Origin: the human T2T-CHM13v2.0 reference genome, Homo sapiens | DNA: 64,000 nucleotides | Direction: 5' to 3' (one strand) | Assembly: GCF_009914755.1 (NCBI RefSeq) | Contig: NC_060944.1 | Part shown: one piece after another, positions 8,971 through 32,000 of the stretch | Numbering within the stretch: position 1 is the stretch's first letter | Layout of the letters: every line of letters starts with the position of its first letter | Translations under genes and position numbers: made by a program | The notes under the pieces: model-generated | The model's database searches: none | The model's input: only the letters and a program-made list of their open reading frames with translations | Told to the model about the DNA's origin: nothing

Positions 8971-10600
8971 ACAAAATAATTTTCTTCAGAAAAGTAAAAA
9001 GGAAGGAATGAAATAAGCTATAAACAGTAAATGAAAAAATAATAAAGATATAGTAGTGATCCTGATATAAAACAAGAATTCAACTAAAAAAGTATTACAC
9101 ATGGCAAAGGATACTTTTTATTGCTAAAATCCACAGCTAACAAAGAATATAATAGGTATAAACATCTATGCCCCCAAAAACATAATGTATTTACAAAGTC
9201 AATAGTAGTCATATATAAAACCAATACTCAGAGGACATAAGGGTAGCAAAACCCCATTACAATGGCAACAAAGATGAAATACTTGCTAATAGCAAGAACA
9301 CACAAAACCTGTATAAAGAAAACTTTACAGCACCCATGAAAGATAATGTAGACTCGAACAAATAGAAAGACATCCCTTATCTCAGGTAAGATAATTCAAC
9401 ATCTTAAAGATGTCATTTCACTCTAATTAATGTATAAATTTAATGCAATCCCAGAATTACTAATAGACTTTTTATGAATCTGGACAAGTGGACACTAAAA
9501 TTTATAGGGAACATGCAAGAAGAGCTAGAAACTCACTGAAAAAGGAAATCTCGATGGGGAACTTTCCCTCGCAGACATTAAAGTTTAGATCCCATAATTA
9601 TAACAGTGTGGGGCTGCTGCGTAAATAGCCACATAGACTGGTGGGATAGAATACGACATCCAGAAAAACACCCAAGAACATATGAAAATTTAAAATATGA
9701 GAAAAGCAGCATCTCAAATTATCGGGACAAAAATGGACTTTTAAATACATGTTGCTAAGACAACTAGACAGACATTTGGGAAAACAGATAAAAATTAGAT
9801 CCATAATTTACATCACACACAAAAACAAAGACCAAACATCAGAAAACTAAATATAAAAATACTAAAATACATAAGACTTAGAAGCAAACATGGGTAAATT
9901 CCTTTATAGCCTGAGTGTAAGAAAAAACTTTTTAACTGTGATTCAAAGTTTAAATGTAATAAAAGAAAAAAAATGATTCATCTGACAACATTTTATTTGC
10001 TGTGGCAAAAATATAAGCAAAGTCAACAGATAAATCACAAACTGGAAAAAACTGCAACATATATCACAGATAAAGTACTGATATCTCTGATATATAAATA
10101 ACTTTAAAAATTGATAGAAAAAGTAAAAAACAAACTGAAAATTGAGCAAAAGACATAAACAGGTAATTCAAAAATTACATAAAAATGGCTATTAAGTATA
10201 GGAGAATATAGCAATTTCACTTATAAGAAAAAGGAAATTAAAGCTATATTGAGATATAATTTCTTACATGTAAGTGTGACAAAAATGAAAGTTAGACCAC
10301 ACAAACTGTTTACAAGGCTGTGAGGAAACAGTCATACATTGCTGGGACAAATGCAAGTTGGTTTTACCCTTAAGGAAGGAAATTTAGTGACATCTAGCAA
10401 AACTGTGTATTAGTCCACCCTTTAATCCTACAATTCCTCTTCTAGGAATTCACTCTGAAGACGCACCTTCAACAATACAAAAATATATGTGCACAAGTTC
10501 CTTGATGCAGCAACATTTGCAACTGAAAGATATTGAAAACAATATAGCCACACATGAGAGTGGCCAAATAAACAGCTATAATCACATAATAGAGTACTGT

Positions 10601-10904
10601 GCCGGGCGCGGTGGCTCACGCCTGTAATCCCAGCACTTTGGGAGGCTGAGGCGGGCTGATCATGAGGTCAGGAGATAGAGACCATCCTGGCCAACATGGT
10701 TAAACCCTGTCTCTACTAAAAATACAAAAATTAGCTGGGCATGGTGGTGGGTGCCTTTAATCCCAGCCACTTGAGAGGCTGAGCCAGGAGAATGGCTGGA
10801 ACCCAGGAGGGGGAGGTTGCAGTTGAGCCAAGATCATGCCACTGCACTCTAGCCTGGTGACACAGCAAGACTCTGTCTCAAAAAAACAAAACAAAACAAA
10901 ACAA
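10601..10904 (+). mobile_element. AluSc-like
   Basis: Full dimer, (CAAAA)n tail, TSD AGAGTACTGTG at 10591-10601 and 10905-10915. Confidence 0.95.
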
Positions 10905-11153
10905 AGAGTACTGTGCAGCTGTAAAAAAAAAATAAGGAAGACATTTATGAAATAATATAAAGTGATACCCAAGTATCTATAGTATGTTAGCTTTTCTATA
11001 AGAAGGGGAAATATAACATACATTGACTTCAAAATTTTCACAAAAAAAAACCGCCAAGAAATTAATGACATTGGTTTCCAACAGGGGATGGTAGAGGTGA
11101 TGTAAAAGAAGTGATATGTGCTTTTCTGTATGCACTTGTTTGTACAGCTAGGC

Positions 11154-11197
11154 TTTTAGAACCACGTTATAATGTTTTTAGAACCACGTTATAATGT
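11154..11197. repeat. Perfect 22-bp tandem duplication
   Basis: TTTTAGAACCACGTTATAATGT x2. Confidence 0.95.
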
Positions 11198-11463
11198 TTT
11201 ACATATTAAGAAATCAACAGGGATGGGCAAAATGAAACTAAAATTAAAAACAAAGAGTCATAAACAAACCTAACTTAATTTCCAATAAATACATAACCAT
11301 ATTCTAGTGAAAGAAAAAAAATAAACCAAATAATTTTCAACACAACGGTTTGCATATATTTAGACTGAAGAGAGAACAGAAAATATATATTGAACCCTAG
11401 TTAGTAGGTTTGTTTTGCTAAGATTAATATTTCTGGAAATACTTCTTGAGTATTCTATGTTGA

Positions 11464-11909
<446 letters not shown>

Positions 11910-11938
11910 ACTTTTGCCTTTTATGATAGATAGCTAAA

Positions 11939-12244
11939 GGCTGGGTGTGGCGGCTCATGCCTGTAATCCCAACACTTTGGGAGGCTGAGGCAGGTGGATC
12001 ACCTGAGGTCAGGTGTTTGAGACCAGCCTGGCCAACATGGTGAAACCCCGTCTCTACTAAAAATAAAAAAATTAGCTGGGCATGATGGCCGGTGCCTGTA
12101 ATCCCAGCTACTCAGGAGGCTGAGGCAGGAGAATCACTTGAACCTGGGAGGCAGAGGTTGTAGTGAGCCAAGATCACGCCATTGTACTCCGGCCTGGGCA
12201 AAAGAGCAAAACTCCGTCTCAAAAAAAAAAAAAAAAAAAAAAAA
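11939..12244 (+). mobile_element. AluS (Sq-like)
   Basis: Full dimer, A24 tail. Confidence 0.95.
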
Positions 12245-14700: not shown

Positions 14701-16329
14701 GTGGGTTTTTGGGGTTTTATCATCATCATTCATATCTCCTTACAGAGGAGCTCATGACCAATGAAGGCACAATTCTGCAGAGTAAACAAATGCAAATGGG
14801 GTGTGGGAGACTGGGTTTAAGCCATGGCTCTGATCTTGAGCAAATAACTTCCCCATACTGGACTTCAGTTTCCTTTTATCTGCTGAAAGAAGAGAACTGG
14901 ACAATCAATAAGCTCCCTTCCAATACTGCATTTTATACTTCCCATTCCTCAACAATAGGACTTTGAGGCTGTGTACAAACTATCCCCTAATTGAGAAGTT
15001 GGAAATGTAGTTTCTCTGCACCTCATGAAGAGGGACTTAGACTTTCTATTAGGAGCTGGCAACCCCCTGGTTTAAACCAACCCAAACCAGAGCAGTCCTT
15101 CATGCTTCCCTGCGCAGCTCTTATCTGACCTTAATGATTCCTGCTCTGTAAGAGATCCATTGAGCTGTAATTACTAATTGATGTTTGTAAAGTCTTTGAA
15201 ATTCTCAGGTGACAGATGTAATCAAAGGCCAATTTATTATGATAATTGTTATTAGTACAGCTCCTCACTATTTGTTGATGTTAATGGCAGGGCCAGCAGG
15301 TGTTTCAAGATTGACTGAGGGACTTAGGCTGGCCATGTTTGGCGGGAGGAAAAGAAAAATATGAGTGCATAAGGGATTTGGGACCCTCCTGGTTCTAGTG
15401 CACCCATATTCCTCTATGAAGCTATCTTGTGGGACTAGGGCTCGGCATGAAACGGAGCAGTAAATGCATAGGACTTTTAACTGCATTTTTCACATGCACA
15501 GATTCAACCCCAGCTCGTTCTCTTGTTTCTGGAGTATGCTTCAGCAAATCATAGCCTCTCACAGCCTTGGCTTGCTTGTGTGTTAAATGAGAATACATAT
15601 AGTGCCAATTTACACTTGCTGTGATTCGAGAATCTGTTTGAGACAAGCAATCGTGGATGTGGGAAGAAGCGTTAGGAGACTGTTGAGGTTGTCCAGGCAG
15701 AAGATGTTACTATCCAGAACTACGATGGTGGCACTGGAGATGAGAAAAGTGCATGGATTAGAGAGAGCTTCAGAGTGTAGAACAAAGAGAACTTGGTGAT
15801 GGCTGAATATAGAAGGTGATGTATAGCAGGAAACCCAGACTTTGCTGATAGGAAAGATGCAGGAATAACTTTGAAGGAGATGAATGAATCATTGCCTACT
15901 ATTTTCATCAGTGTCTTGTACATATGGTTCATGTCAATCTCTTCAACTGTGTAGCCCAATAAATTGCATTTATGGGTTTGCAAACTTGAGGACCATGATG
16001 TAAAAGATGACACTTGATGAAAATTCAGCCTCTAGGAGGAAAGGGACTGCAGAAGAATTGTCCCACTTCTCCACTTGCCTCTCCGTAAGTACGACATTCC
16101 CAAACTTCCTTTGACATCTCAATCCCTCTCTTTCTTTCAGGCAGCCAGTGTGTCAGCTGCCGTCTCTGGAAACCCTGGACTTCACTAATTTTTTTCCTCC
16201 TCCTGAATTCCCTGATCCCACGTCATGTTCATACTCTATTCAAATTTGATCCATGGGTTTAAAAACTCTGCCCCTGTGGATTCTGCTTGTTCTTTCCTGA
16301 GTGTACCTCTATGCTCTATCCCACCTGTG

Positions 16330-16530
16330 ATATGTAATAGCAATATCTGACATTAATTGGATGTTTATTGCATGCCAAGCACCGTGATAAGTGTTTTATT
16401 CATCTTATTATTTAATATTTAGAAACATTCTTATAAAGTTGATACTATGGGTGTTAATGTTTTCCAAAAGAAGAAGAGACTCAGAGAGCCTAAGTCACTT
16501 GCCTAAGGTCATGTAGCTGGTCAGTGACAA
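16330..16530 (-). mobile_element. MIR
   Basis: gagactcagagagcctaagtcacttgcctaaggtcatgtagct, MIR core. Confidence 0.7.
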
Positions 16531-17030
16531 TCTATGCAACAGGAAAGACCCCATGCTAGACATATTAATCAAAAATGCTGAGGTGAAACAAACTTGGAAA
16601 TTCACTAATCTTATTTAATAGCATTAATGCCATTTTATAGTGCAAGAAATAGAATCCGTGAGTGCAAATGTCTCCATTAACTTTTTATATTTTAACCTCA
16701 GATTTCATAGGATTGATATAAGAGGGACTAATTGAGTGTTTGAGCAAAAATGTTCTGATGACATTGACCAGCATCAACTCAGGGCTTCTTATACAAGGAT
16801 ATATGTGATAAATCACCCTCTTAGTGTCTTTCATGAAAAATATGTATGCTTCCTTCAAGTAAGAGAAGCTATGCAAACCTGCCACCTGCTCTTTTTTTCC
16901 TTGGCTTCGAGGAAGCTCAGGAGATACAGATAGTGTACCCTGCGCTAACCACCTATACTAGGCCTCTGGTGCAATGATTACTCTTTATTCCACTATAAGA
17001 TTCTTAGACTAATTTAAACTTTTTATTTTA

Positions 17031-17345
<315 letters not shown>

Positions 17346-17562
17346 TTAATTGAACATGTATACATACATACTCATATATACACATACATCTATATATATG
17401 CATGCTAAAATATTTATGTGTATATGCACATATGCTGAATTCTTGTTCTGTATATAAATTTCATAAAATTTACAGTTAAAAATTTAGATTCACATACCCA
17501 AGTGTTTCCACCAAAGATACTTCAAAGTTTTCCAATAACTGAATTGAGTATCAGTTTTAACA

Positions 17563-17605
17563 TGTGTGTGCACGTGTGTGTGTGCGTGTATGTGTGTGTG
17601 TGTGT
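17563..17605. repeat. Imperfect (TG)n microsatellite
   Basis: tgtgtgtgcacgtgtgtgtgtgcgtgtatgtgtgtgtgtgtgt. Confidence 0.9.
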
Positions 17606-19059
17606 TTTAGCAAGTATACCTTTACCTGAAAGGTCCTTTGCAAAGAGTTATCACGCCTACCATTTACTTGTTACAAAGGTCCTAGTGAGCTTGAAGGACA
17701 CATCTCATCCCTGTTTGACAGAGGGGAAACTGAGGTTTGGCAGGCAAGTATTCTGTCTATGGAGCTAAGAAACGGAAAAGCCAGTTCTAAAACCCATGGA
17801 TACCATTTCCAAATTCAGAAGTTTCTCTACTTTTTCACCATCTGAGGGCAATCAGTCCAAGCTTCACGAGGTTCCTTACATTGTAGGGGCCTGATGGAGG
17901 CAGAGATGCTGCTATATAGAAACTGAGGCTGCTATTTCCATGAACTTTGTTGGGACTGGAGTCTGGAGCATTTATCCCTGAAGGCCCAGGCTGACAAGAT
18001 TATCAGCTGTCAACATTTGGGTAACCTTCATCTCCCTTTCCAAATGAATTTAAAGTATATTTGCATGGGAAGGAAAATGTTCTTGCTCCCTCAGGTCTCA
18101 TACCATGATAATAAAATCTGTAGAAACTGTAAGTGGATGAAAAAATAAATTAGCAACCTGGGAGAGCTCATCTTGGTATCTGTACAAGGTGACACTTGGG
18201 GAATTTCTATCTTACCTAAGGAGAGAAGTCTGGGCCCCAACAGAGCTCCAGCAGGGGTTTAGAGTTTTAAGGCTCAAACAATGGAATGGAGGCCTGGAAG
18301 CAGGGATGCCCAAGTGAGTGGGTAAGCCCCAGGAGATGGAGTCCACTGAGGACTGGGAAAGAGTTCTAGGCAGATAAATGGGGCATGGAACCTAGGCTCT
18401 GGTGACAGACAAGAGCTGTGAGTGGATGTTTACCCGATTGAGATTTTCCTAAGGAGTAATGGAAAGGTTGTGATGATAATCCTGGAATCAAAGTGTCTAG
18501 TTCAGTCTTCCTCTCCACTTCAACAGGGCTCTGCAGAGCTAATAAAATCCAGGAATCGATTCCTTACATAGACTATAGTGACAAGTCAGCAAACGGTTAC
18601 GTGGGGGCCTCTGGGTCACAGCTCTCTGTTGCCTTGGCTCAGCTACCGATGGGTGGTAGAGGTCTAAGGTCTGCTGAGTTATAGAAGCATTGGAAGACCG
18701 TTGCTTTTCAGGGTGGAACAGCAGCACATTGAGTTTCAGGCATTTCTTTACCATTCCTCCATGGAGGTAAAGGGGAAAAGCTGTTACTAAAATCCCTCCT
18801 TCAGTGTGAAGTAACTGAGACCCCATGGGATTCCAGGGGCCTCTAGGTGTTCGTCCATCTACTGAAAAAATGTAGTCACTTTGTGAGACCAATCAAGGAA
18901 GCAGCATAGGTGAAAGCACCTTGCTTAATATCTGAGACACAGCAGATGCTCAAGCAATTGAAATTCCTCAGGATTTGTGGTATGAACTGCCCAGGTGCTT
19001 CAGGAGCAAGTCTGGGTATTATAAGAATATGAAGGGGAGGCTTAGTCATCATGGAAAAT

Positions 19060-19410
19060 TGTGGTAGTCATTGGGGAAGTTCTCAAATATTCCAGTTCTC
19101 CTAGGCATATAGAAGGCACTGCCTTATTCTTTCTGAAATTAAGTGTGGCCATGTGGTTAGCCTTGGCCAGTGGAATGTGAAAATGCTATGCACCACTTTG
19201 TATGGAAACTTGTAGAACGAATGCTCTATTTGCCACATTTTTCTTTCTCAGACTTGGTGGTGGTGTCAAGATGGACATTCTGTTGGCCTGAGTCTCTGCC
19301 TGCAACAAGCAGAGACCCTCTGCTGACCCATTTCAAATATATAGCAGAAGTGATCCAGTGAGATTTTGTTGTTGTTACTACAGAATAATTTAGCTTATCT
19401 TAACCAATAT
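19060..19410 (+). mobile_element. MLT1-type MaLR LTR (old)
   Basis: ttaagtgtggccatgtggttagccttggccagtggaatgtg...ttgttactacagaataatttagcttatcttaaccaata. Confidence 0.7.
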
Positions 19411-19673
19411 AGGAGTTTTCAAATAAACTTCCTGATGGGGTATCCAAGACCCAAACTGCCATGTGATCTCCTGATGATCTTAACTCGAACCCTCTAGAGC
19501 TTATATCTACAGCTTCTCATTCCATGTCTATCTGAGGTTTTCATAAGGACATGCGAACAGTCACTGAACTAACATGAGAAATAAGAAATGGGGTAGAAAG
19601 GGCAATATCATAACCAAAAGATAAGATCAATTGTGCCAAAAGACTCAACAGGAACAGATATCAGGCTTGAAAC

Positions 19674-20295
19674 TGTCAGAGACCTTTGAACCAGAGCAAC
19701 TCCATCTTGAATAGGGGCTGGGTAAAATAAGGCTGAGACCTACTGGGCTGTATTCTCAGGAGGTTAGGCATTCTAAGTCACAGGAAGAAACAGGAGGTTG
19801 GCATGAGATACAGGTCATGAAGATGTTGTTGATGAAACAGGTTGCAGTAAAGAAGCCGGCCAAATCCCACCAAAAGCAAGATGGTGACAAAAGTGACGGC
19901 TGGTCATTCTCCTGCTCATTATATGCGAATTATAATGCATCAGCATGCTAAAAGCCACTTCTACCGGCACCATGACAGTTTATAAGTGCTATGACAACAT
20001 CAAGAAGTTAGCCTATATGTTCTGAAAGTGGGAGGAACCCTCAGTTCCGGGAATTGCCCACCCCTTTCCCAGAAAACTCATGAATAATCCACCCCTTTTT
20101 TTTTAGCATATCATTAAGAAATAACCACAAAAATGGCCAACCAGCAGCTCATACTGCTGCTCTGTCTATGGAGCAGCCATTATTTTATTCCTTAACTTTC
20201 CTAATAAACTTGCGTGGACTTGCCTAGAATTCTTTCTTCCACAAGAACCAAGAATCCTCTCTTGGGGTCTGGATCCGGACCCCTTTCCAGTGACA
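19674..20295 (+). mobile_element. ERV1 solo LTR MER41B
   Basis: TGTCAGAGACCTTTGAACCAGAGCAACTCCATCTTGAATAGG...CCCCTTTCCAGTGACA; TG...CA ends; 4-bp TSD AAAC; contains the 43-bp GAS-bearing segment 20036-20078. Confidence 0.92.
20045..20074. promoter_or_regulatory. Tandem GAS (STAT-binding) motifs within MER41B
   Basis: TTCCGGGAA at 20045-20053 and TTCCCAGAA at 20066-20074, centres 21 bp apart; motif presence only, no functional evidence. Confidence 0.75.
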
Positions 20296-20339
20296 AAACC
20301 ATGTATGAGAAGTTAAACTAAGAGGAATACAGCCTGGGG

Positions 20340-20357
20340 TGAGTCATGGGTGAGTCA
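20340..20357. promoter_or_regulatory. Tandem AP-1 (TRE) motifs
   Basis: TGAGTCA at 20340-20346 and 20351-20357; motif presence only. Confidence 0.55.
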
Positions 20358-21679
20358 AGGCGGTCATCAGCTGGGACACAGACACAAGTCCTAAAGTCCT
20401 CCAAAGTTAGGAAGGTGTGTGCTTCTATGTGGAGTTTACTGGACAAATCGGTATATGCCAGGTAAGGATGCTCCAACCCTCTTCCCCCTCAGAAGAGGAG
20501 CCTCTGGAAAGCAGCCAAAAGAAAAAAGAACAAATAGTCCAACTGTAATGCGATAAGATACTTTAATATACATTGTCTAATTTACTCTCTCCCGATTTTT
20601 TTGAGGCAGATCATTAATCATATTTTCCATCTTGAGATGTTAAGTAAACTGTTCAAGTTCACATAGCTGAGAGCAGCCAAAATTCAAAGCCAAGTCTGTC
20701 TGATGCTCAACTCTCAGTTCTTTCCACTCTATCATGCCACAGAAAACCCATCCATGTGCAACCATTTCTTTAACAGTGGTTGGACACAAGTGAATATAAT
20801 TTCTCCCAATTCATTCAGAGACACAGAATTTTCCCTAACCTAGCTCTACCTAGATAATCCCCACTATTATAACGTGATTATACTGCAAGCATCATGACCA
20901 ATTCAACACAGCATCTGGTTTCCAAGTGCTCTCAAGAGGCAATTGAGTTCAAGAACTGGAGGAGGAAGTAGGAGAGAGAGAACAATCACCCTGCTACTTC
21001 CCACTTCTCTTATTTAGCTTAGCATTTGGCAGAGGCATCATCCAGGTTAAATGTACCCCTACATGATGGAAAGGATATGACAAGAAAAGACTTTTATCCT
21101 CTGCATAAATAGAACATGCATAACAGCATTGCCCAACAAAAGGTGGCTTCTGATGGATATTTGCATGAGTTTGCCACACTTGTTTTGCATCCAACCGTTA
21201 ATTATGGTCCTTTCAACTTCACAATTACGGCTAATGGTGGTGAGGATGCAGAGAACAGTAGATTCAGCAGACCTCATTCTGGGAAGAGTGTGAAACAAAC
21301 AATGCGAAACTGCACCCACCCGCTGTTTAGAACTGAGACAGCTACCCTGGGTACCATTTGGAGGATTTGGAGGAAATCAAGGCTGCCCAGGAGCCTGGAG
21401 CTTGGGAAATGAGACATCTGGGGAAAAAAATCTTACTACTATGATGGAGAAAAAAGGTCCTTTAGGACTCTTTTATCTATGGTGAAAATGGCTCAAACAA
21501 CATCTCTCATTCTACGCTGAATGGAAATTCAGACTGTACTGACACCTACTTGGTGCTTTTCATTATTCAATATCTTTTTCTTATTTAATCCTCAAACAGA
21601 CTGTGTGAAGTATATATTACTATTTCAATTTATAAGTGAGGAAACAGATTCATAGACAACAAGAAACAGTTCATAGTCT

Positions 21680-22100
21680 CATTCTTTCATTAATCCATCA
21701 AATGATTATTAGGTGTCTATTATGTGTTAAATAGTACACTCAGCATGGAGGATATAGCAGCTAAAAAAACAAAAAACCCAAACACACCAACCACAATTCA
21801 TCACTCTTGGAGCTCTCAGCATGCTGTGGGAGGCATGCAGTACCCAACAACATGTGCAAATAAAATACATATATATCTAGTGTAATATAGAAAGATAGTG
21901 GGTTAACATATGAGTGAGTGCTGGTGGGTGGTTCTTAGGTAATATGGTTGGACTCTTCTCTGGAGATGTGAGATTGAAACTCAGGCCTGAAAAATGAGAA
22001 GGTACTAGCTCTGCAAACAGTGAAGAAAAGACAGATGTAGGTAAAATGCACCCTGAATTAAGACCCCAAAGTGAAAAACATGTTGGAATGTTTGAGAAAT
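21680..22100 (-). mobile_element. L2 fragment
   Basis: cattctttcattaatccatcaaatgattattaggtgtctattatgtg, antisense L2 tail. Confidence 0.6.
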
Positions 22101-24849
22101 AATGTCTTAGGAAAGGTTCAAGACACGAGGCTTAGTTAAAATCTAGCAGGCATGTCTGAACCATATCTGAAGAACAGTGATAGGTTCTGGGCAACTCTTT
22201 TTGAGGAGAACATGATGGGGAAAATGAGCCTATCAGAGAAAAGGGTAAGTAGGATGAAGGATACCCAGAAATTATGCCATGTGAAAAATAAAAGAAGTAA
22301 TAGCATGTTAATTATCAATGAGAAATAACTTGAGTGGCCAGAGGAGGGTAGTTGGTACTGTCTTATTTTCTCTGAAAGGCTAACAAAGGAAAGAACGTTT
22401 TGATTTGTTCAAACCAATACAAGTGGCTACAAGGGGAGAGTCAAGGAGACAGAATTTAGCTCTATATGGGAAAAAAGCTTTAACAATTTTACCTGCTCCA
22501 CAAAGGAATCAACTCCCTTTCACTCCAGCAATTTGCATTGATCAAGCTGAAGCAATACAATGTGTTGCTAAGAATGCTTTATTGGAGATTTTTTTTTTGG
22601 CTTCTCGTCTAGACTAGATGACACTTCAAAGTCCTTCCTACTCTATGATGCTATAGTTCTATAATATTGCTATATCCAAAACAAATGGTTACAACATGGT
22701 CTAATTCATAAGAGACAGGTGTTGTGAATTAGGCACCAAAGACAGTGTGCCAGGACAAATGGGACTACATTTTTATCTGTAAGAAGGCATCAATGGATAA
22801 ATGTGAGATTACTAATTGGAACAAAATTCCCAACACAAGTGCCTGTGAACAACTCTTGTGTCATGAAAATGCCTGCAAGAACCCTGAGCAACATATCTTA
22901 TAGTGCATGCCACACTTGAACTCTGCATGGTGTTCACATGGCTGGATTAAAATACTTCATATTCACAGATCAACAAAGAGTCTATAAAATGTCTTTATCC
23001 TCATGCTGATAATAGTAAACATTTAATGACTGACTTCCACATTCCTAATGTGAAACCTAAGGATTCATTATTCGATACATTATTTCACTTATTTATTTTT
23101 GTTCTCTCCCCCACTAGAATGAAAACACGATGAGATCAGGGATCTTTGCTTGACTCACTGCTGCATTCTCAGCACTCAGAAAAATGCCTTTTTTGACATA
23201 TTGCATGTGCTTGACAGATGTTTCCTTAATTAATCCATCATATCTAATTATTTTAGTAGTTTACTGAAAGTCACACAGCTACTAGGGTTTTGTACCTAGG
23301 CAGTCTGATAGTAAAGGTTGAATTCATAGCCACTCTGTTAACCTGACAAACCATCCTTAACATCCGTAGAACAAAGATGTCCAGACCTCAGAATTCTCCT
23401 ACCCTTCCTTGACTAAAACTTGCAGGTAGAGTAGGGAGCAATGAAATTTGCTGATAGTAAATTATTCCACCTGGCTCACAACCATCCTGCAACAAATGCC
23501 CATTTCTGCTTTCCTTTCACTTGAGGTTAATATAACTCTATCTCATCCTTTGTCTTTAATCTTTTAGTGACAGAAATATGGGTAATTCTGATTTTTCTTT
23601 GACCTAAGCTGTTTTCTTTCTCTTTCACAATGGAGCAAAACAACACTTTTTTACCCCCCCGTCACCCCATATCAAATCTAGTGCTTTCATCTTCTGGCTT
23701 TTTTTATAGTTTTGATTTTCATGTTTACTTATAGTTTTCTTTATTTTCTTCATTTTTCTTCGTTGACTGTTGTTTCTCAGCTTTTTAAGTATAGATTGGA
23801 GAGCTGACTTTGTTTAAAAGAACTATACTTTTTAGTATTCTCAGTATCAGAAATAAAACAGTAATTATGTATTCCCTCTTGTCTAACATGAGAAAATGAG
23901 CAGATTTTTATTTACATTCATCCATCTTCCAACTTTGTCTTAGTTTTTGTTGATAAAATAGTGAATTATAGATCCAGATTAGAACTGTTAAGTTTTTACA
24001 TTATGCATCTTTGCCTTAAGTAGTTACATTTTACATTAACCTTCCATTTTGTAACACACTTAGAGCCATTATTGAGCATTAATGCTATGTTTAATTAGTT
24101 TTATGCTCACTGTAGGTCTTCGTATTCCACATTTCTCAATTCTTGATTTCTTTATTTTGATTAATTGCTCAGTCAATTGCTCTGTGAATGATTTATTAGA
24201 AGCAGGGAACGTGGGAGCCCCTGGATACCGAGAATGGCTTTCTGATGTATTTGCACACGAACAACAACTTGGCTGATAAAGAATTTGTGGATTATAACAC
24301 TTTCTCCTCAAAAATCCTCCAGGCTTAACATCATTGTCTGCTGCCCTTTATGATATGGAAAAATTTGAGAGGGACCAGGCAGAGATTTGTTAGACTGAGA
24401 ATGGCTGTTCTGCTTCAATGACCCTTTCACCCAACTCTTCTCAGTAAAATTTAATACTAAAGACAGTCATTTGAAACAGTGTGTAGTTTTTCCTTTGCCA
24501 GAAAAGTACAGCCTTCTGAGTGCCCAGCTCCCATTGCTTTTCCCCTGTCTGTTCCTGTGAGGTCAAGTGCACCCGCAAGACATGTGGCATAAGCACTCAT
24601 CCAATTCCATTCCTGCCTGTGTTTCGTTACTGGGAATCTTAGTTACAAAGCAAGAGTACATATGCATGGTGTGGAATAGAAGGCACAGGTAATTAAATGG
24701 CCTTGTTCATTTCTGAAGCAGTGTCAAAACTGCTTCTGAGATGAGGCAGTTTCAGAGTGAGATCCTTTTTTTTTTTTTTTTTTTTCCTCTATGGCAAATC
24801 CCTGAGTCTTGAAGAGGGAGGTCTCTGATATGATGTTTGGGGAGCAAAC

Positions 24850-25399
24850 TGTCGGAGGCATTTGAACCTGAGCAACTCCATCTTAAATAGGACCTGGGTA
24901 AAATGAGGCTGAGACCTACTGAGATGCATTCCCAGATGGTTAAGGCATTCTAACTCACAGGATGAGATAGGAAGTCGGTACAAGATACAGGCCACAAAGA
25001 CCTTGCTATAAAAACAGCTTACAGTAAAGAAGCTGGCTAAAATCCACCAAAACTAAGATGGCCATGAGAGTGACCTCTGGTAGACCTCACTGCTACACTC
25101 CCACCATCATCAGGACAGTTTACAAATGCCATGGCAATGTCAGGAAGTTACCCTATATGGTCTAAAAAGGGGAGGCATGAATAATCCACCCTTGTTTAGC
25201 ATATCAAGGAATAGCCATAAAAATGGACAAACAGCAGCCCTCAGGGATGCTCTGTCTATGAAGTAGCCATTCTTTTGTTCATTTACCTTCTTAATAAACT
25301 TGCTTTCACTTCACTATACGGACTTACCCTGAATTCTTTCTCACACGAGATCCAAGAACCCTCTCTTGGAGTCTGGATCAGGACCCCTTTCCTGTAACA
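24850..25399 (+). mobile_element. ERV1 solo LTR MER41A
   Basis: TGTCGGAGGCATTTGAACCTGAGCAACTCCATCTT...CCCCTTTCCTGTAACA; 4-bp TSD AAAC; lacks the 43-bp GAS segment (GGGGAGG|CATGAATAATCC). Confidence 0.92.
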
Positions 25400-26207
25400 A
25401 AACCTCTGTGGTTGGCTCAGGGCCAACCACTCTTATGGTGAGGACATTCCTTCTGATGTGCATTTGTTGGTTTCCCGGGTTCTATAGCCATGCTCTATTT
25501 CTAGGTTTTCTGAGTATCTTAGTGGGAAGAATAAAGTAAAGCTACTTCTTTCCCATCTCATCATGGAAACCCAACCACAACTTTTGATATGTGCCAAGAG
25601 CAGGGAAAGCCACACCTTCTTAGAGGGTTGTGCTGAACTGATAAACTGGCCAGTGTGGGATGCCGAGAACCGAGAACAAGATGAGTCCCAGATGCTTCTG
25701 CCAATTTTTATGTCTTCCTGCTCAATACATCAGAGTGCTTCATGCAGCGGGAAGACCAGATGGACAGGTGGAAGGCAGTCTGGCAGCTTCTCTTTGTAGT
25801 CTTATGCTCTCTGTGAGGAGTGTTGCTTGAACCAGTAATAAATGCAGAACTGAAATACCACAGTGGAATTTAAATGGGTATGTGGACATTCTAAATGTTA
25901 ATTAGTTCCTCAATCCGGGTTTCTCACCAAGCACTGACTGCCATTGACAGATTAAACTCTCAATCTTGGCCACCCAGAGCCTGCCCAGGCTGTTCCCCAC
26001 ACACTTCACCAAATCTTGCTTCTGTCTCAGGCTTCCCTTCTCCAGCAAGCTTCTCAGTTCTCCATGTTATACACTGCATAACAAGGCACATGACAGACTC
26101 CCTTACATTTCTATAAGCTCTTGGAGGGTACATACTACATAAACTTAATATGAACTGTAGGGCTTAGCATTTGTTGGTGTTTGTTAAAAGAAATATGACC
26201 ACTTTGG

Positions 26208-26594
<387 letters not shown>

Positions 26595-27054
26595 TTAGCT
26601 TGCAGAAAAGACAATCTTATGGGCACATTTATATAGAGAAGAAAAGGGTGTTAGAAAAGATCTTATGTAACTGAAAGACTATAAACCAAGAAGGTGGTTG
26701 CATTGGTTTTGTAGGATGCTAAGAGTGTGAATCAAGAACAATGGATAGAAACTTCAATAGGAAATATTTCAGTAAGTACATTAAAAAGCCTCCTTAGAGA
26801 CACAGCCCACTCCCTACTCCAGAAAACAGTAAAGCTACCTCAGAGATAAATGAGTTCTCTGTCATTGGAGGTATTCAAGAATAAGCACTAATGCCAGTTA
26901 ATTGGTGTTGTAGTATGGATAGAACCATTGTTTTGTGTGTGTTTGAGATTGTTGAATGACCTTTGATATGCTTTCCAGCCCTGTGATTTTCTAATATTAT
27001 GACTGGTGCCAATCCTCGACCAAAGAAATATTTGACACAAAAATGGTTACCTTG

Positions 27055-27171
27055 CGTGAACCCGGGAAGCGGAGCTTGCAGTGAGCCGAGATTGCGCCAC
27101 TGCAGTCCGCAGTCCGGCCTGGGCGACAGAGCGAGGCTCCGTCTCAAAAAAAAAAAAAAAAAAAAAAAAAA
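27055..27171 (+). mobile_element. 5'-truncated AluYb8/Yb9
   Basis: Diagnostic 7-bp duplication GCAGTCC-GCAGTCC, CpGs intact, pure A26 run, TSD AAAAATGGTTACCTTG at 27039-27054 and 27167-27182. Confidence 0.95.
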
Positions 27172-27376
27172 TGGTTACCTTGTTTTTGGAGAAACACTAT
27201 TTTCTAATGTGACCAATGGCAATGAAAAAGGGCGTATTAATCACTAATCAACTAAACCATGATTAGTGCATTCCTAGATAGCAAATTGATAGATATTATT
27301 ATTATATATGAAGAACTTAAGGATCAGAGAGGTCATGTAATTTCCTCAAGTAAAGCACCATCTCTTTACTTTAATA

Positions 27377-28058
<682 letters not shown>

Positions 28059-28059
28059 C

Positions 28060-29060
28060 TACAACAAAACTCCAGTCCTGAGCATCAGATTTTCAAACCT
28101 ACCACGTTGTAGAACTTTACCTCCACTTAGCTGTCTCAGAGCCAGCTCACACTAGACACATCTAAAACTCAACTTAGCCCCAACCCCTACAAACCTGTCT
28201 GCTCCTCCTTCTACATTTCCTTTCTTAGTAAATGGTAGCAGCATCTGACAAGTGGCCAGAATCTGAATCTAGGGCTCATCCTCAGTTCTTAACTCCTTCG
28301 TTCTCACTCCTCATCCTAATCAACAGCCTTACAGAAGTCTGTTGATTTGGCTTCTGCAGGTTTGCATCTGCCCCACCTCTCTTTTCTCCTTCCACTGATA
28401 ATGCCTTGGTTGGACACTTTCCCACTTACCCAGATTCAACTAGTCTCTTTGCCTCTAAGGCACTTGATTTATTAATCACTCATCCTAATCATATGGCTTC
28501 CTAATCATATAGCTCTTCAAACACTTTCATAGGCCTTCCATTGTCCAAATTATACAATCTGAACTCCTAATCTTGGCATTTGAAGTCCTCTGTGCCTGCC
28601 TTCTGTCTTCCATTTAGAAGGTCTTCTCATGGTGTTCCCATCTTCCAGCTACTCCAGACCCCATGCTATTGCACAGACATCTTTTGGATCTCACCTCATG
28701 CATTACTGACTTATGCTTCCTCTACCTGCAATGCCCTGCATCCTGGCCACCTCTGGTTTCCTCCAAAGGCTGAGCATGTCTTTCACTTCCTCTATGAAGC
28801 CTGTCCAGATATGTCCAGTCTGGATGAATTACCTCCCTCTTTAGTTCCCCTAGAGCTCATCTAATCTCCATCTGCTTTGTTTTCCAATATCATGAGATGG
28901 GACTACTCTTTCACTGGCTAGATTGTGACCTTTTACAAAGTAGGCATTGTTGCTTACTTATCTCTGCCTCATTCTCCACCCCCACCCCATACTGCCCAGC
29001 AGGATGCCTGTCACCCAACAAGTGATCAATGAATGCTTGTTCAAATGAATTAAATTGGAT
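28060..29060 (+). mobile_element. L2 fragment
   Basis: Ends gatcaatgaatgcttgttcaaatgaat; pyrimidine-rich L2 body. Confidence 0.6.
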
Positions 29061-32000
29061 TGAATTAAAATTGAAAGCAAACATGAAACCAAATCTGCCT
29101 GGATGCAGAAACCCTAATCGGATAAACAGCGATTGCCTTGAGTTCCTGTCTAGTGATCTCATATTGTTCCCTTCAAGTTAGAAGGATGTAAGAAGATGCT
29201 AGTGTGTGAATAGAGATGACTGATCCTTTATTGAATATCAACTGATACCCAATGTTAGACTCTCTTTGTAAAAGTTCTTTTAAGGTTTGTAAGTTGGAGA
29301 ACATTTTTCAATCTCTTTGAATGCCCCACAGTTTATAGTTCTCTGGAATAAATGCTCTTCTTTTAGAAGAGCTTTATTGCACAGATCTCTGGGACTCATG
29401 ATCTAAAACAGAAGATCGATTGCCCAAAGAGTACCCACTGGAGACTTCTGTGAATTAATGAGGTGGTTGCAGTAGGGGACCCCAAACCAATCATTTAAAC
29501 AGGGCATAGTGAACCAGCATGTGGTTTATCAAAAATGAAACGTGTTGCAGGCTACCATCCTTCAATCAGACTATCCATCTAAAGACACTTGATTAAGGAG
29601 TACAACTTGGGAGATGACAGAGACACAGGACTATTTCATTAAGGAAAAAAGGCTATGGAGAACTGCCCTAAGAAAATGTGACACACTCAATATGGCAAGT
29701 TTTCCCCTGAATTTTCTTGAGCATAGGAATTTTCAGGCATGCGAAAAGGAAGCGCTGGGCATATGAGTATATGCCACACTTAGATGAGTGCAGGTAAACA
29801 GCAGCTCAATGACCATGCCTGTTGTACATACACATCTGAGTAAGAACCTGACAGTTCAGAGTGCATGTGAGTGACATGCGAGTGGATGTGGACAATCTCT
29901 CAAGAAATGCACACTACATCTGAGGGTGTACCATTTCCAAGTGAGGATCTGTATTACCTGGGCATCTAACTCCAAATGAGTAAATATAACATTCAGATGA
30001 ACGTGGCTAACCTGAGTGTTTAGACTTCTAAATAAGTGTGTGTAACATCTGAGAAGGTGTTAACAATCCAAAGTTTGTGTGTGGGTGTGCACCATCTATG
30101 CATGTTCATAATGCCTGTTGAAGTCAATAAACGTTTAAATTAAATTATGATTTCAATAATCACTTCCTCCTCAACTCTGGGGTCCTTCTCAACTGTACAA
30201 TTCCTATGTTTATCAGGACAGCTAAGCTCAAAGCAGTCACTGAAAAATAGCACAAGGACCTAATACCCAAACCTAGAGGTTGCAGGGCAGAAGTGGAGGG
30301 GTGTTTGTAACAGAGTTTTCAGGACCTGCACTGCTTTATAAATAACAATATATTCAGGTAAATCTTTGAATCTGGCTTGAATGCTAATAGTAGCTCGACC
30401 AGTTGAGGGTCCATTACTTGTGGGACTCTGATCTGTGAGGGAAAGGGCAAACACAAAAGAGCTTCATGAAGCAGACAACCTCTTGGGCTCTCCTGCTGAA
30501 GCTAACAACAGACCTAAGAACACTGCATTGGATTTGGGAGCATGCAACCAAAGCAGTCCTCATATCCTCTTCAGCAGATTAGAAGGAACCAATAGCCTCA
30601 TCCCCAGGACCAGGAGTTGGAAAGAGCTGGGAGTCCCTGCTTTCTTCTGAGGGCCAGCCTATCCCTAATCACCGCTTGAATTGATCACATCTACATAACA
30701 AGGCCTTTGTCTTGCTTTCTCAGACAGACTTCCCATTCTACCTTAAATCCTTCTGTCATCTTTCCCCTCTAAATTGAGACCCCCGAAGCCTTGGGAGCTT
30801 CCCTGGGACTGAATCCCCCTCCAAGAATCAGTTCCTACTGTCTCTGGCCCTCCCGTGATGGGATGGATCAAGAGGAACCACATGGCTGTCCTCATTTACT
30901 GTCCACAACTAGCATAAGATTCCATAGTTGTGGCCAAGCAAGAAGATGGGTTCTCACTGGGCTCTGAACATTCAAATGCTGCCAAGGACTATTAGACACA
31001 GCCATAATATCTCTGTGAGGGTCAGCCTGTATATCCCCATCAGCTCTTTCTCCCCACCAATCTGATTACTGAAGATCCACTTGTCAATTCAACCAAGCTC
31101 AAAAGCCAGATTACACATGAGGAGGCTGAGGCCGAGAGGTCAAGTGATTCATGAGGGTCAAACTGCAGCAAAAGTAGAAACCCAGACTTTTCATTCATAG
31201 CTCAGTATCCTTCCTTTTTTTTTTTTTTTCTATTTTCTTCTCTTCCTACAAACCAATAAAACGTATAAAGGGGCTTCCAAGCATTTTTTTTTAACTTGGC
31301 ATCCTAAACTGCTTAGCTCTATCCCAACCAACTCCATATGAAATTACAAAGAATAGCAAAGGGTATTTTTTTTTGGTTTAAACTGTGCAGTCAACATATG
31401 GTTCACATACGATTGTGATTATTGTGCCAAAATATACCCAGCAACTCCTTCAGGCCCATGCATTCACAGCCTGTCCATTCAAAAGCAAACCTGCAATGCA
31501 GCCAGAAAAATTTAAATCATTTTGTTAGATAAATCTGTTTGCCAGTGGATTCAGCCTCTCTCAAAGACCACAGAACTCTGATTGAAGAGGTGGAGAGAAG
31601 AAACAGCACTCACAAGTTGTATAACTTTCCTTTCCTGACACTTTTTAGGAAAGGGTGGGGGAAAGAAACAAGAAATTGGGTATTATTTGTATTTCTTGCA
31701 ATAGCTTCATTCTCATTCTCTTGAGAATACATTTATCTAAGAGCATGTTCTTTTCAGCTTGCTGGTAATGATAAAATCATATCCAAATGTGAATGACCTC
31801 CCTTTTGGGGTCATATCTCCAGCTCAAAAACAGTGGTTGCAATAATCTATTCAGAATCATTTTTAAAGAGAAAGGATTTTTTTAGTAGGAAAAATCCCAA
31901 TAACATGAGAGAAGAATAACCTAAGACACTCACCACACAGCACATAGCATTTACTCATACATTTTCTCCTCTTGTGACACCCTCTCTGTTTCTTCCAATG

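What the first reader, a model, noticed from the sequence alone, without database searches (positions are those of the whole stretch)
19674..20357. MER41B LTR with intact tandem STAT motifs inside the gene for a STAT3 phosphatase: candidate primate-specific JAK-STAT feedback enhancer
Seen: a complete MER41B solo LTR keeps both GAS motifs (TTCCGGGAA 20045-53, with its CpG not decayed, and TTCCCAGAA 20066-74). Their centres are 21 bp apart (two helical turns), and the LTR lies ~7.4 kb 3' of the PTPRT exon. Established: MER41B copies carry tandem GAS sites and some act as IFN-gamma-inducible, STAT1-bound enhancers (e.g. at AIM2); PTPRT dephosphorylates STAT3 pY705. Inference: a STAT-responsive element within PTPRT could form a lineage-specific feedback loop, either by inducing PTPRT or by driving an antisense transcript, since the LTR faces opposite to the gene. 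Motifs alone do not show activity, and the PTPRT promoter is far outside this window.
Basis: partly seen in the sequence, partly recalled or inferred. Interest (0 to 1): 0.72.

Follow-up and report, generated by a model that had tools for sequence, protein, structure and literature searches.

The report
Ordinary MER41B solo LTR in PTPRT intron
This is a real, roughly 45-million-year-old retroviral remnant (a MER41B solo LTR) that still carries the pair of STAT-binding motifs typical of its family, but hundreds of sister copies do too, and nothing here shows that it regulates PTPRT.

Summary
A full-length LTR lies on the + strand, antisense to PTPRT, in intron 12. Its true bounds are 19674-20295 (622 bp, TGTCAG...GTGACA), with a 4-bp target-site duplication AAAC. 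Both GAS motifs sit at the stated coordinates, with centres 21 bp apart.

It is the MER41B type. It carries the 43-bp block (20036-20078) that the neighbouring LTR (24850-25399, MER41A type) lacks. It also matches elements that papers name MER41B better than that neighbour does. Divergence from 29 sister copies gives about 44 My (35-65), in line with the published 45-60 My. It is a solo LTR: the 4.55 kb between the two LTRs is single-copy DNA.

The motif pair is inherited, not special:
- 15 of 29 sister copies keep it.
- The genome holds 1343 such tandem sites against 573 for the control pattern.
- 183 places match this 30-bp core within two mismatches.

The LTR lies 884 kb from the PTPRT start site. 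No functional element is annotated on it, and no paper mentions both MER41 and PTPRT. The feedback-enhancer idea is untested and unlikely a priori. This is a known kind of element, of low interest.

The parts
19674..20295 (+). MER41B-type solo LTR, 622 bp. Termini are TGTCAG...GTGACA, a 5-of-6 inverted repeat.
   Evidence: It aligns end to end with 29 other genomic copies at 80-85% identity. The termini are shared. It gives a better match than LTR2 to elements that papers name MER41B.
19670..19673 (.). Left copy of the 4-bp target-site duplication AAAC.
   Evidence: A 4-bp duplication is the family pattern: the left and right 4-mers match at all four bases in 10 of 29 B-type and 7 of 11 A-type copies, and at three of four in 13 and 2 more.
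20296..20299 (.). Right copy of the target-site duplication AAAC.
20036..20078 (+). 43-bp block holding both GAS motifs. It is absent from the neighbouring MER41A-type LTR.
   Evidence: There is a gap of exactly 43 columns in the LTR1/LTR2 alignment. This matches the published MER41A versus MER41B difference (passage of PMC9963469).
20045..20053 (+). GAS motif 1, TTCCGGGAA, with its CpG retained.
20066..20074 (+). GAS motif 2, TTCCCAGAA, centred 21 bp from motif 1.
   Evidence: A 21-bp spacing is stated for the MER41B consensus in PMC2897888.
20203..20208 (+). AATAAA polyadenylation signal of the LTR. It fixes the sense of the LTR as + strand.
   Evidence: LTR2 has the same signal at 25293.
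20300..20357 (.). Together with the right AAAC copy at 20296-20299 it makes up the 62 bp overrun.
   Evidence: No sister copy aligns past about 20295-20310. The stretch 20296-24849 matches only itself in the genome, apart from fragments of about 110 bases or less.
24850..25399 (+). Neighbouring MER41A-type solo LTR, 550 bp. It has the same orientation, no GAS motif, and is also flanked by AAAC (24846-24849 and 25400-25403).
   Evidence: It is 86% identical over its full length to the BBS10-promoter element named MER41A in PMC6473030.

Best explanation
The feature is a MER41B-type solo LTR. A gammaretrovirus-like MER41 provirus integrated at an AAAC target in what is now intron 12 of PTPRT, about 45 My ago. 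Recombination between its two LTRs then removed the interior and left one LTR. The formation steps are inferred from established retroviral biology; the anatomy is shown here. The tandem GAS module is an inherited part of the family's U3 region, and this copy happens to have kept it intact. The sequence is therefore competent in principle to bind STAT dimers or tetramers. That is an inference from motif identity: both 9-mers are letter-for-letter those of the element upstream of AIM2. In vivo it is most likely one of the many unbound or inconsequential copies, with no effect on PTPRT. Its antisense orientation is what is usually tolerated for LTRs inside introns (recalled knowledge).
For: Anatomy: TG...CA termini, a 4-bp AAAC duplication and AATAAA on the + strand.
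Family: 29 full-length sister copies at 80-85% identity. The 43-bp block is present (PMC9963469 passage). Against the CEP290-promoter MER41B it scores 444 bits, versus 223 for LTR2. Against the MER41B elements near IFI6 it scores 416, 329 and 168 bits, versus 226, 215 and 150 (names from PMC6473030, and PMC6292174).
Solo status: the 4554 bp up to the next LTR is single-copy. The two LTRs are further apart (K2P 0.257) than either is from its own subfamily (0.195 and 0.134).
Age: half the mean K2P to 29 copies is 0.098, which gives 44 My at 2.2e-9 per site per year and 35-65 My over the other rates and site sets tried. Print gives 45-60 My.
Ordinariness: 15 of 29 copies keep both motifs at 21 bp. 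There are 1343 tandem sites genome-wide against 573 for the control. There are 183 places within two mismatches of the 30-bp core, 5 of them exact. LTR1 has 7 CpGs against a mean of 5.9 (2-11), and ranks 26th of 30 by closeness to the others, so it shows no sign of constraint.
Context: 884 kb from the start site, with no RefSeq element on it and no + strand transcript annotated in the window. No paper holds both MER41 and PTPRT.
Against: Inertness is not shown. No chromatin, binding or expression data could be consulted. The 30-bp core is fully intact, including a CpG. Its two 9-mers equal those of the element upstream of AIM2, which differs at 2 of 30 positions, both in the spacer. A RefSeq 'OCT4-NANOG hESC enhancer' lies 532 bp away, so the neighbourhood is not wholly silent in every cell type. 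In print, some MER41 elements contact promoters over distance, and MER41B carries STAT3 sites. Subfamilies C, D, E and G could not be excluded by direct comparison. MER41E also has the 21-bp tandem in print.
Confidence: 0.8

Rival explanations
1. The LTR is a cytokine-inducible STAT1/STAT3-bound enhancer or antisense promoter inside PTPRT. It couples JAK-STAT activity to the level of a STAT3 phosphatase, giving a primate-specific feedback loop.
For: The tandem GAS is intact at 21 bp, with the same two 9-mers as the element upstream of AIM2. In print, MER41B is the subfamily most strongly induced for STAT1 binding (PMC2897888) and carries STAT3 sites (PMC6473030). PTPRT dephosphorylates STAT3 Y705 (PMC6164089).
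Against: The LTR is 884 kb from the canonical start site, and about 594 kb from the predicted internal one at window coordinate 613,990. It is one of several hundred equivalent sites. GAS occupancy is low even for the best motifs: under 18% in HeLa. In print, only 3 of 175 IFN-gamma-induced genes contacted a MER41 LTR (PMC6292174). PTPRT is described as expressed largely in brain and spinal cord. The reviews read describe it as a phosphatase silenced by promoter methylation, not as a STAT target. No antisense transcript is annotated, and no paper holds both MER41 and PTPRT.
Confidence: 0.05
2. The LTR is, or belongs to, a constitutive enhancer specific to one cell type (trophoblast or pluripotent cells). 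It would be driven by factors other than STATs and would have no link to JAK-STAT feedback.
For: In print, MER41A/B/C are enriched in placental and trophoblast-stem-cell enhancers bound by GATA2/3 and MSX2, and these are a different set from the IFN-induced ones (PMC10069462). A RefSeq 'OCT4-NANOG hESC enhancer' lies at 20827-21510, 532 bp from the LTR.
Against: The annotated enhancer does not overlap the LTR. No element is annotated on the LTR itself. No target gene other than PTPRT lies within the window.
Confidence: 0.08
3. The two LTRs (19674-20295 and 24850-25399) are the 5' and 3' LTRs of one degraded provirus, so this is not a solo LTR.
For: They have the same orientation, lie 5.2 kb apart start to start, and AAAC lies outside both.
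Against: The interior, 20296-24849, is single-copy, with only fragments of about 110 bases or less matching elsewhere. AAAC also lies on the inner side of each LTR, so each has its own duplication. The LTRs belong to different subfamilies, with indels of 43, 37 and 14 columns. Each aligns full-length to its own set of copies. They are more diverged from each other than from their own subfamilies.
Confidence: 0.01

Closest known systems
MER41B LTR of the MER41 endogenous retrovirus. In print it is primate-specific, gammaretrovirus-like, has six LTR subfamilies (A-E, G) and 7190 copies.
   Same: Full-length colinear match to 29 genomic copies. Shared TGTCAG...(G/A)TAACA-type termini and a 4-bp duplication. 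The 43-bp block with two GAS motifs 21 bp apart. A better match than LTR2 to elements that papers name MER41B.
   Different: Nothing of substance differs. It is slightly shorter than the median copy (622 against 629 bp) and slightly more diverged than most of the sample (rank 26 of 30).
MER41.AIM2, the MER41B element 220 bp upstream of AIM2. It is reported as the IFN-gamma-inducible, STAT1-bound enhancer needed for AIM2 induction (Chuong et al. 2016, seen only through a passage of PMC9963469).
   Same: Both 9-base GAS motifs and their spacing are identical. The 30-bp core matches at 28 of 30, with both differences in the spacer.
   Different: The AIM2 element is promoter-proximal to an interferon-induced gene, whereas this LTR is 884 kb from the PTPRT start site, in an intron. 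Outside the core the two are only 61% identical over 253 columns. No binding or activity data exist here. That the match at chr1:158,214,339-158,214,368 is MER41.AIM2 is my inference: it is the only LTR1-like match in the 80 kb fetched across AIM2.
MER41A LTR, represented by the neighbour at 24850-25399.
   Same: Same family, termini, duplication length and orientation. Mean column identity is 83%.
   Different: It lacks the 43-bp GAS block and a further 37 columns, has 14 extra columns after the polyA signal, and has no TTCNNNGAA at all.
STAT-induced negative-feedback inhibitors of JAK-STAT signalling (SOCS type).
   Same: Only the logic: a pathway inhibitor whose gene carries STAT sites.
   Different: No evidence that PTPRT is STAT-induced was found. 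In the review read, 'negative feedback' is used for SOCS, not for PTPRT.

Membership tests
MER41B solo LTR | LTR termini TG...CA with a short inverted repeat | tested here: met
   TGTCAG at 19674 and GTGACA ending at 20295. 26 of the 29 other copies in the table start with TGTCAG (my count of that table).
MER41B solo LTR | Matching short target-site duplication on both sides, with no internal retroviral sequence adjoining (solo state) | tested here: met
   AAAC on both sides. The 3' flank 20296-24849 is single-copy. The 74 bases 5' of the LTR matched nothing else.
MER41B solo LTR | Full-length similarity to a multi-copy family of LTRs about 630 bp long | tested here: met
   39 scored matches out of 4034 first-look candidates. 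29 were fetched, at 80-85% identity, and all but one (L026) align over nearly the whole 622 bp.
MER41B solo LTR | Presence of the 43-bp segment with the STAT1 motif that the MER41A consensus lacks (print) | tested here: met
   A 43-column gap in the MER41A-type neighbour at exactly 20036-20078. Criterion taken from PMC9963469.
MER41B solo LTR | Two GAS motifs 21 bp apart centre to centre, as in the MER41B consensus (print) | tested here: met
   PMC2897888. In the same table MER41E also has this spacing, so the feature is not exclusive to MER41B.
MER41B solo LTR | Closer to elements named MER41B than to elements named MER41A | tested here: met
   CEP290 MER41B: 444 bits for LTR1 against 223 for LTR2. 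BBS10 MER41A: 334 bits for LTR1 against 631 for LTR2.
MER41B solo LTR | Assignment against the curated consensus library (Dfam/Repbase), including exclusion of MER41C, D, E and G | not testable with these tools
   No repeat library is on hand.
MER41B solo LTR | Primate-restricted orthologous insertion of matching age | not testable with these tools
   No other primate genome is available. Divergence dating gives about 44 My, against 45-60 My in print.
IFN-gamma-inducible MER41 enhancer (MER41.AIM2 type) | Intact tandem GAS | tested here: met
IFN-gamma-inducible MER41 enhancer (MER41.AIM2 type) | Cytokine-induced STAT1 occupancy and an enhancer chromatin state | not testable with these tools
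   No ChIP-seq or ATAC data are available, and papers' supplementary tables are closed.
IFN-gamma-inducible MER41 enhancer (MER41.AIM2 type) | Lies near (220 bp to about 20 kb in the published cases) or contacts the promoter of a cytokine-induced gene | tested here: not met
   It is 883,646 bp from the PTPRT NM_007050.6 start site, and there is no other gene in the window. Contacts could not be tested. No evidence of PTPRT induction was found in print.
Provirus (two LTRs plus interior) | Retroviral interior between paired LTRs of one subfamily | tested here: not met

The most novel reading that the evidence does not exclude
In some cytokine-exposed cell type that expresses PTPRT (neural or epithelial), this intact tandem-GAS LTR is bound by STAT1 or STAT3. 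It then modulates PTPRT, or drives a + strand antisense RNA through intron 12, giving anthropoid primates a STAT3-phosphatase feedback arm that other mammals lack.
Probability: 0.03. Interest if true: 0.6.

Novelty: already known. Interest (0 to 1): 0.12.

Why it matters
As the evidence stands, the value of this check is negative. The features that made the copy look special are family inheritance shared by hundreds of copies: the intact tandem GAS, the 21-bp spacing and the undecayed CpG. They therefore give no locus-specific evidence of function.

Tried and rejected
1. Provirus reading of the two LTRs. Rejected: the interior is single-copy and the LTRs belong to different subfamilies.

2. 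Rejected in favour of 20295.

3. CpG retention in GAS 1 as a sign of protection from methylation. Rejected. By my count of the listing, 5 of the 44 places with the other 28 core positions identical keep the CpG, and 39 differ only there. LTR1's total CpG count (7) is ordinary for the sample (mean 5.9, range 2-11).

4. Naming by the AIM2 element. The first 10-kb fetch gave no match. The 80-kb fetch gave only a 48-bp hit at 85%, extendable to 253 columns at 61%. That serves for the GAS core but is too diverged to name the subfamily. I therefore used the elements near IFI6 and in the CEP290, GCSH, DDHD2 and BBS10 promoters. DDHD2 gave only a fragment of 66-71 bases, which fits LTR2 slightly better (93 against 80 bits). 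PMC6292174 places the IFI6 MER41B 'downstream'. I found LTR1-like elements only 18-24 kb on the upstream side in the 70 kb fetched, so equating them with the published element is an inference.

5. Rfam scan of 15000-30000: 0 matches. The composition profile showed nothing notable.

6. Literature. MER41 plus PTPRT: 0 papers. PTPRT plus 'negative feedback' plus STAT3: 49 papers, all 10 listed being reviews. The one I read uses the phrase for SOCS only. Chuong et al. 2016 is not held, so what I say of it comes from passages of PMC9963469, PMC6473030 and PMC6292174. Papers' supplementary tables, which may list the STAT1-bound MER41 copies and could settle whether this copy is bound, were closed and I did not see them.

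7. Limits of the samples. The 29 B-type copies are the best-scoring of 4034 candidates. They are therefore biased towards long, less diverged copies, and ages derived from them are probably underestimates. The rate of 2.2e-9 per site per year is recalled, not taken from a call.

Full report
OBSERVATION. The window holds TTCCGGGAA at 20045-20053 and TTCCCAGAA at 20066-20074, with centres 21 bp apart. A lone TTCNNNGAA means little: the window has 28 against 24.2 expected from shuffles. The pair lies inside a repeat. A query of 19600-20420 found 4034 first-look candidates in the genome. The 39 that were scored align to query positions of about 75 to 696, which is 19674-20295. In an alignment with the 29 fetched copies, the element starts TGTCAG and ends GTGACA, with AAAC on either side. 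At 622 bp against a median of 629 (610-641), the LTR is essentially complete. It lacks one 14-column stretch after the polyA signal that 13 of 29 copies carry. AATAAA at 20203 fixes its sense as + strand, antisense to PTPRT. It lies in the 33.2-kb intron 12 of NM_007050.6, 7380 bp from exon 12 and 883,646 bp from the start site.

SOLO LTR, NOT A PROVIRUS. A second LTR in the same orientation lies at 24850-25399. The 4554 bp between the two match nothing else in the genome beyond fragments of about 110 bases or less. Each LTR has AAAC on both of its own sides. The two differ by gaps of 43, 37 and 14 columns. Their K2P distance of 0.257 exceeds the distance of each to its own subfamily (0.195 and 0.134). 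They are two independent solo LTRs.

FAMILY. No repeat library is available, so I named the element from print.
- A review passage states that the MER41B consensus holds a STAT1 motif that the MER41A consensus lacks because of a 43-bp deletion (PMC9963469). The neighbour lacks exactly 43 columns, 20036-20078, which cover both motifs.
- PMC2897888 states that the MER41B consensus has two GAS sites 21 bp apart, and that MER41A has a single or distant site.
- Against elements named in papers, LTR1 scores 444 bits on the CEP290-promoter MER41B, against 223 for LTR2. It scores 416, 329 and 168 bits on the two MER41B-type elements 18-24 kb from IFI6, against 226, 215 and 150. LTR2 scores 631 bits on the BBS10-promoter MER41A, against 334 for LTR1 (names from PMC6473030, and PMC6292174).
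- Two comparators were less clear. DDHD2 gave only a fragment that slightly favours LTR2. GCSH, named MER41B and MER41E, favours LTR1 (290 against 175 bits).

So LTR1 is the MER41B type and LTR2 the MER41A type. Subfamilies C, D, E and G were not directly excluded, and MER41E shares the 21-bp tandem in print. Print describes the family as derived from a gammaretrovirus. That a 4-bp duplication fits this class is recalled knowledge. The duplication itself is seen here: the two flanking 4-mers match at three or four of four bases in 23 of 29 B-type and 9 of 11 A-type copies.

AGE. The mean K2P distance of LTR1 to the 29 copies is 0.195, or 0.152 without CpG-prone columns. Half of that is taken as the branch length to a common source. 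At a recalled rate of 2.2e-9 per site per year this gives 44 My. The range is 35-65 My over the rates and site sets tried. The sample consists of the best-scoring copies, so this is more likely an underestimate. Print gives 45-60 My and 83-91% similarity to the consensus. Orthology across primates could not be tested.

IS THE INTACT STAT MODULE SPECIAL? It is not.
- Among the 29 sister copies, 20 keep motif 1, 22 keep motif 2, and 15 keep a pair at 21 bp.
- Genome-wide, the tandem pattern occurs 1343 times against 573 for the reversed control. That is an excess of about 770, and many of the listed sites have the MER41 spacer, including both elements near IFI6.
- The 30-bp core of this copy occurs exactly 5 times. 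It occurs 51 times with one mismatch and 183 times within two mismatches, against a control count of 0.
- By my count of that listing, 39 of the 51 one-mismatch places differ only at the CpG of motif 1. So 5 of 44 otherwise identical cores keep the CpG, and the usual decay products still fit TTCNNNGAA.
- LTR1 has 7 CpGs against a mean of 5.9, and is the 26th of 30 in closeness to the others. Nothing suggests constraint or protection from methylation.

By inference this is the published MER41.AIM2. The motif content here therefore equals that of a copy reported as functional.

FUNCTION. What is shown is sequence competence only. The following count against a regulatory link to PTPRT.
- The 884-kb distance to the start site.
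- No RefSeq functional element on the LTR, and no + strand transcript annotated in the window.
- No paper holding both MER41 and PTPRT.
- Published occupancy below 18% even for top-scoring GAS sites, and 292 STAT1 peaks within MER41 annotations in IFN-gamma-treated HeLa cells (PMC2897888).
- Only 3 of 175 IFN-gamma-induced genes contacting a MER41 LTR (PMC6292174).
- PTPRT being described as expressed largely in brain and spinal cord (PMC6164089).

That PTPRT dephosphorylates STAT3 Y705 is confirmed in print. The reviews read do not describe PTPRT as STAT-induced. My best reading is therefore a neutral solo LTR with a latent STAT module (confidence 0.8). The feedback-enhancer model stands at about 0.05, and a STAT-independent enhancer role in trophoblast or stem cells at about 0.08.

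VERDICT. The identification is right. The functional idea is untested and unlikely a priori. This is a known kind of element, of low interest.

Noticed in passing
window 19670-19673, 20296-20299, 24846-24849, 25400-25403; loci L016, L042, L044 (also L009, L019): Both solo LTRs in the window have the same 4-bp duplication, AAAC, read in LTR sense. So do 3 of 40 other fetched MER41A/B-type copies on both sides, and 2 more on one side. The reverse complement GTTT occurs in 0 of 40. The frequency of AAAC in the window is 0.7%. P(at least 2 of 11) is 2.6e-3 for the A-type sample, whose query carried no flanks. The query for the B-type sample included the flanks, so that sample may be mildly biased. 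Flanks beyond about 8 bases are unrelated. The sites before insertion resemble TG-AAAC-CA. This may be an orientation-specific target preference, or it may be chance.
   Followed up: partly
window 20827-21510: RefSeq lists an 'OCT4-NANOG hESC enhancer' in the single-copy DNA between the two LTRs, 532 bp 3' of LTR1. It is the only functional element annotated in the window.
   Followed up: no
window 24850-25399: A MER41A-type solo LTR of 550 bp, antisense to PTPRT like LTR1, with no TTCNNNGAA. It is 86-88% identical to its best genomic matches, which gives about 30 My by the same top-hit-biased method.
   Followed up: yes
window 10598-12244, 17032-17337, 26208-26513, 27054-27174: Several repeats of about 300 bases with A-rich tails, in both orientations. 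They look like Alu elements; the name is recalled and not tested.
   Followed up: no
window 19683-19788, 20028-20137: The soft-masking of the assembly covers only two pieces of LTR1, each just over 100 bp, rather than the whole element. Masked stretches therefore understate old repeats here.
   Followed up: no
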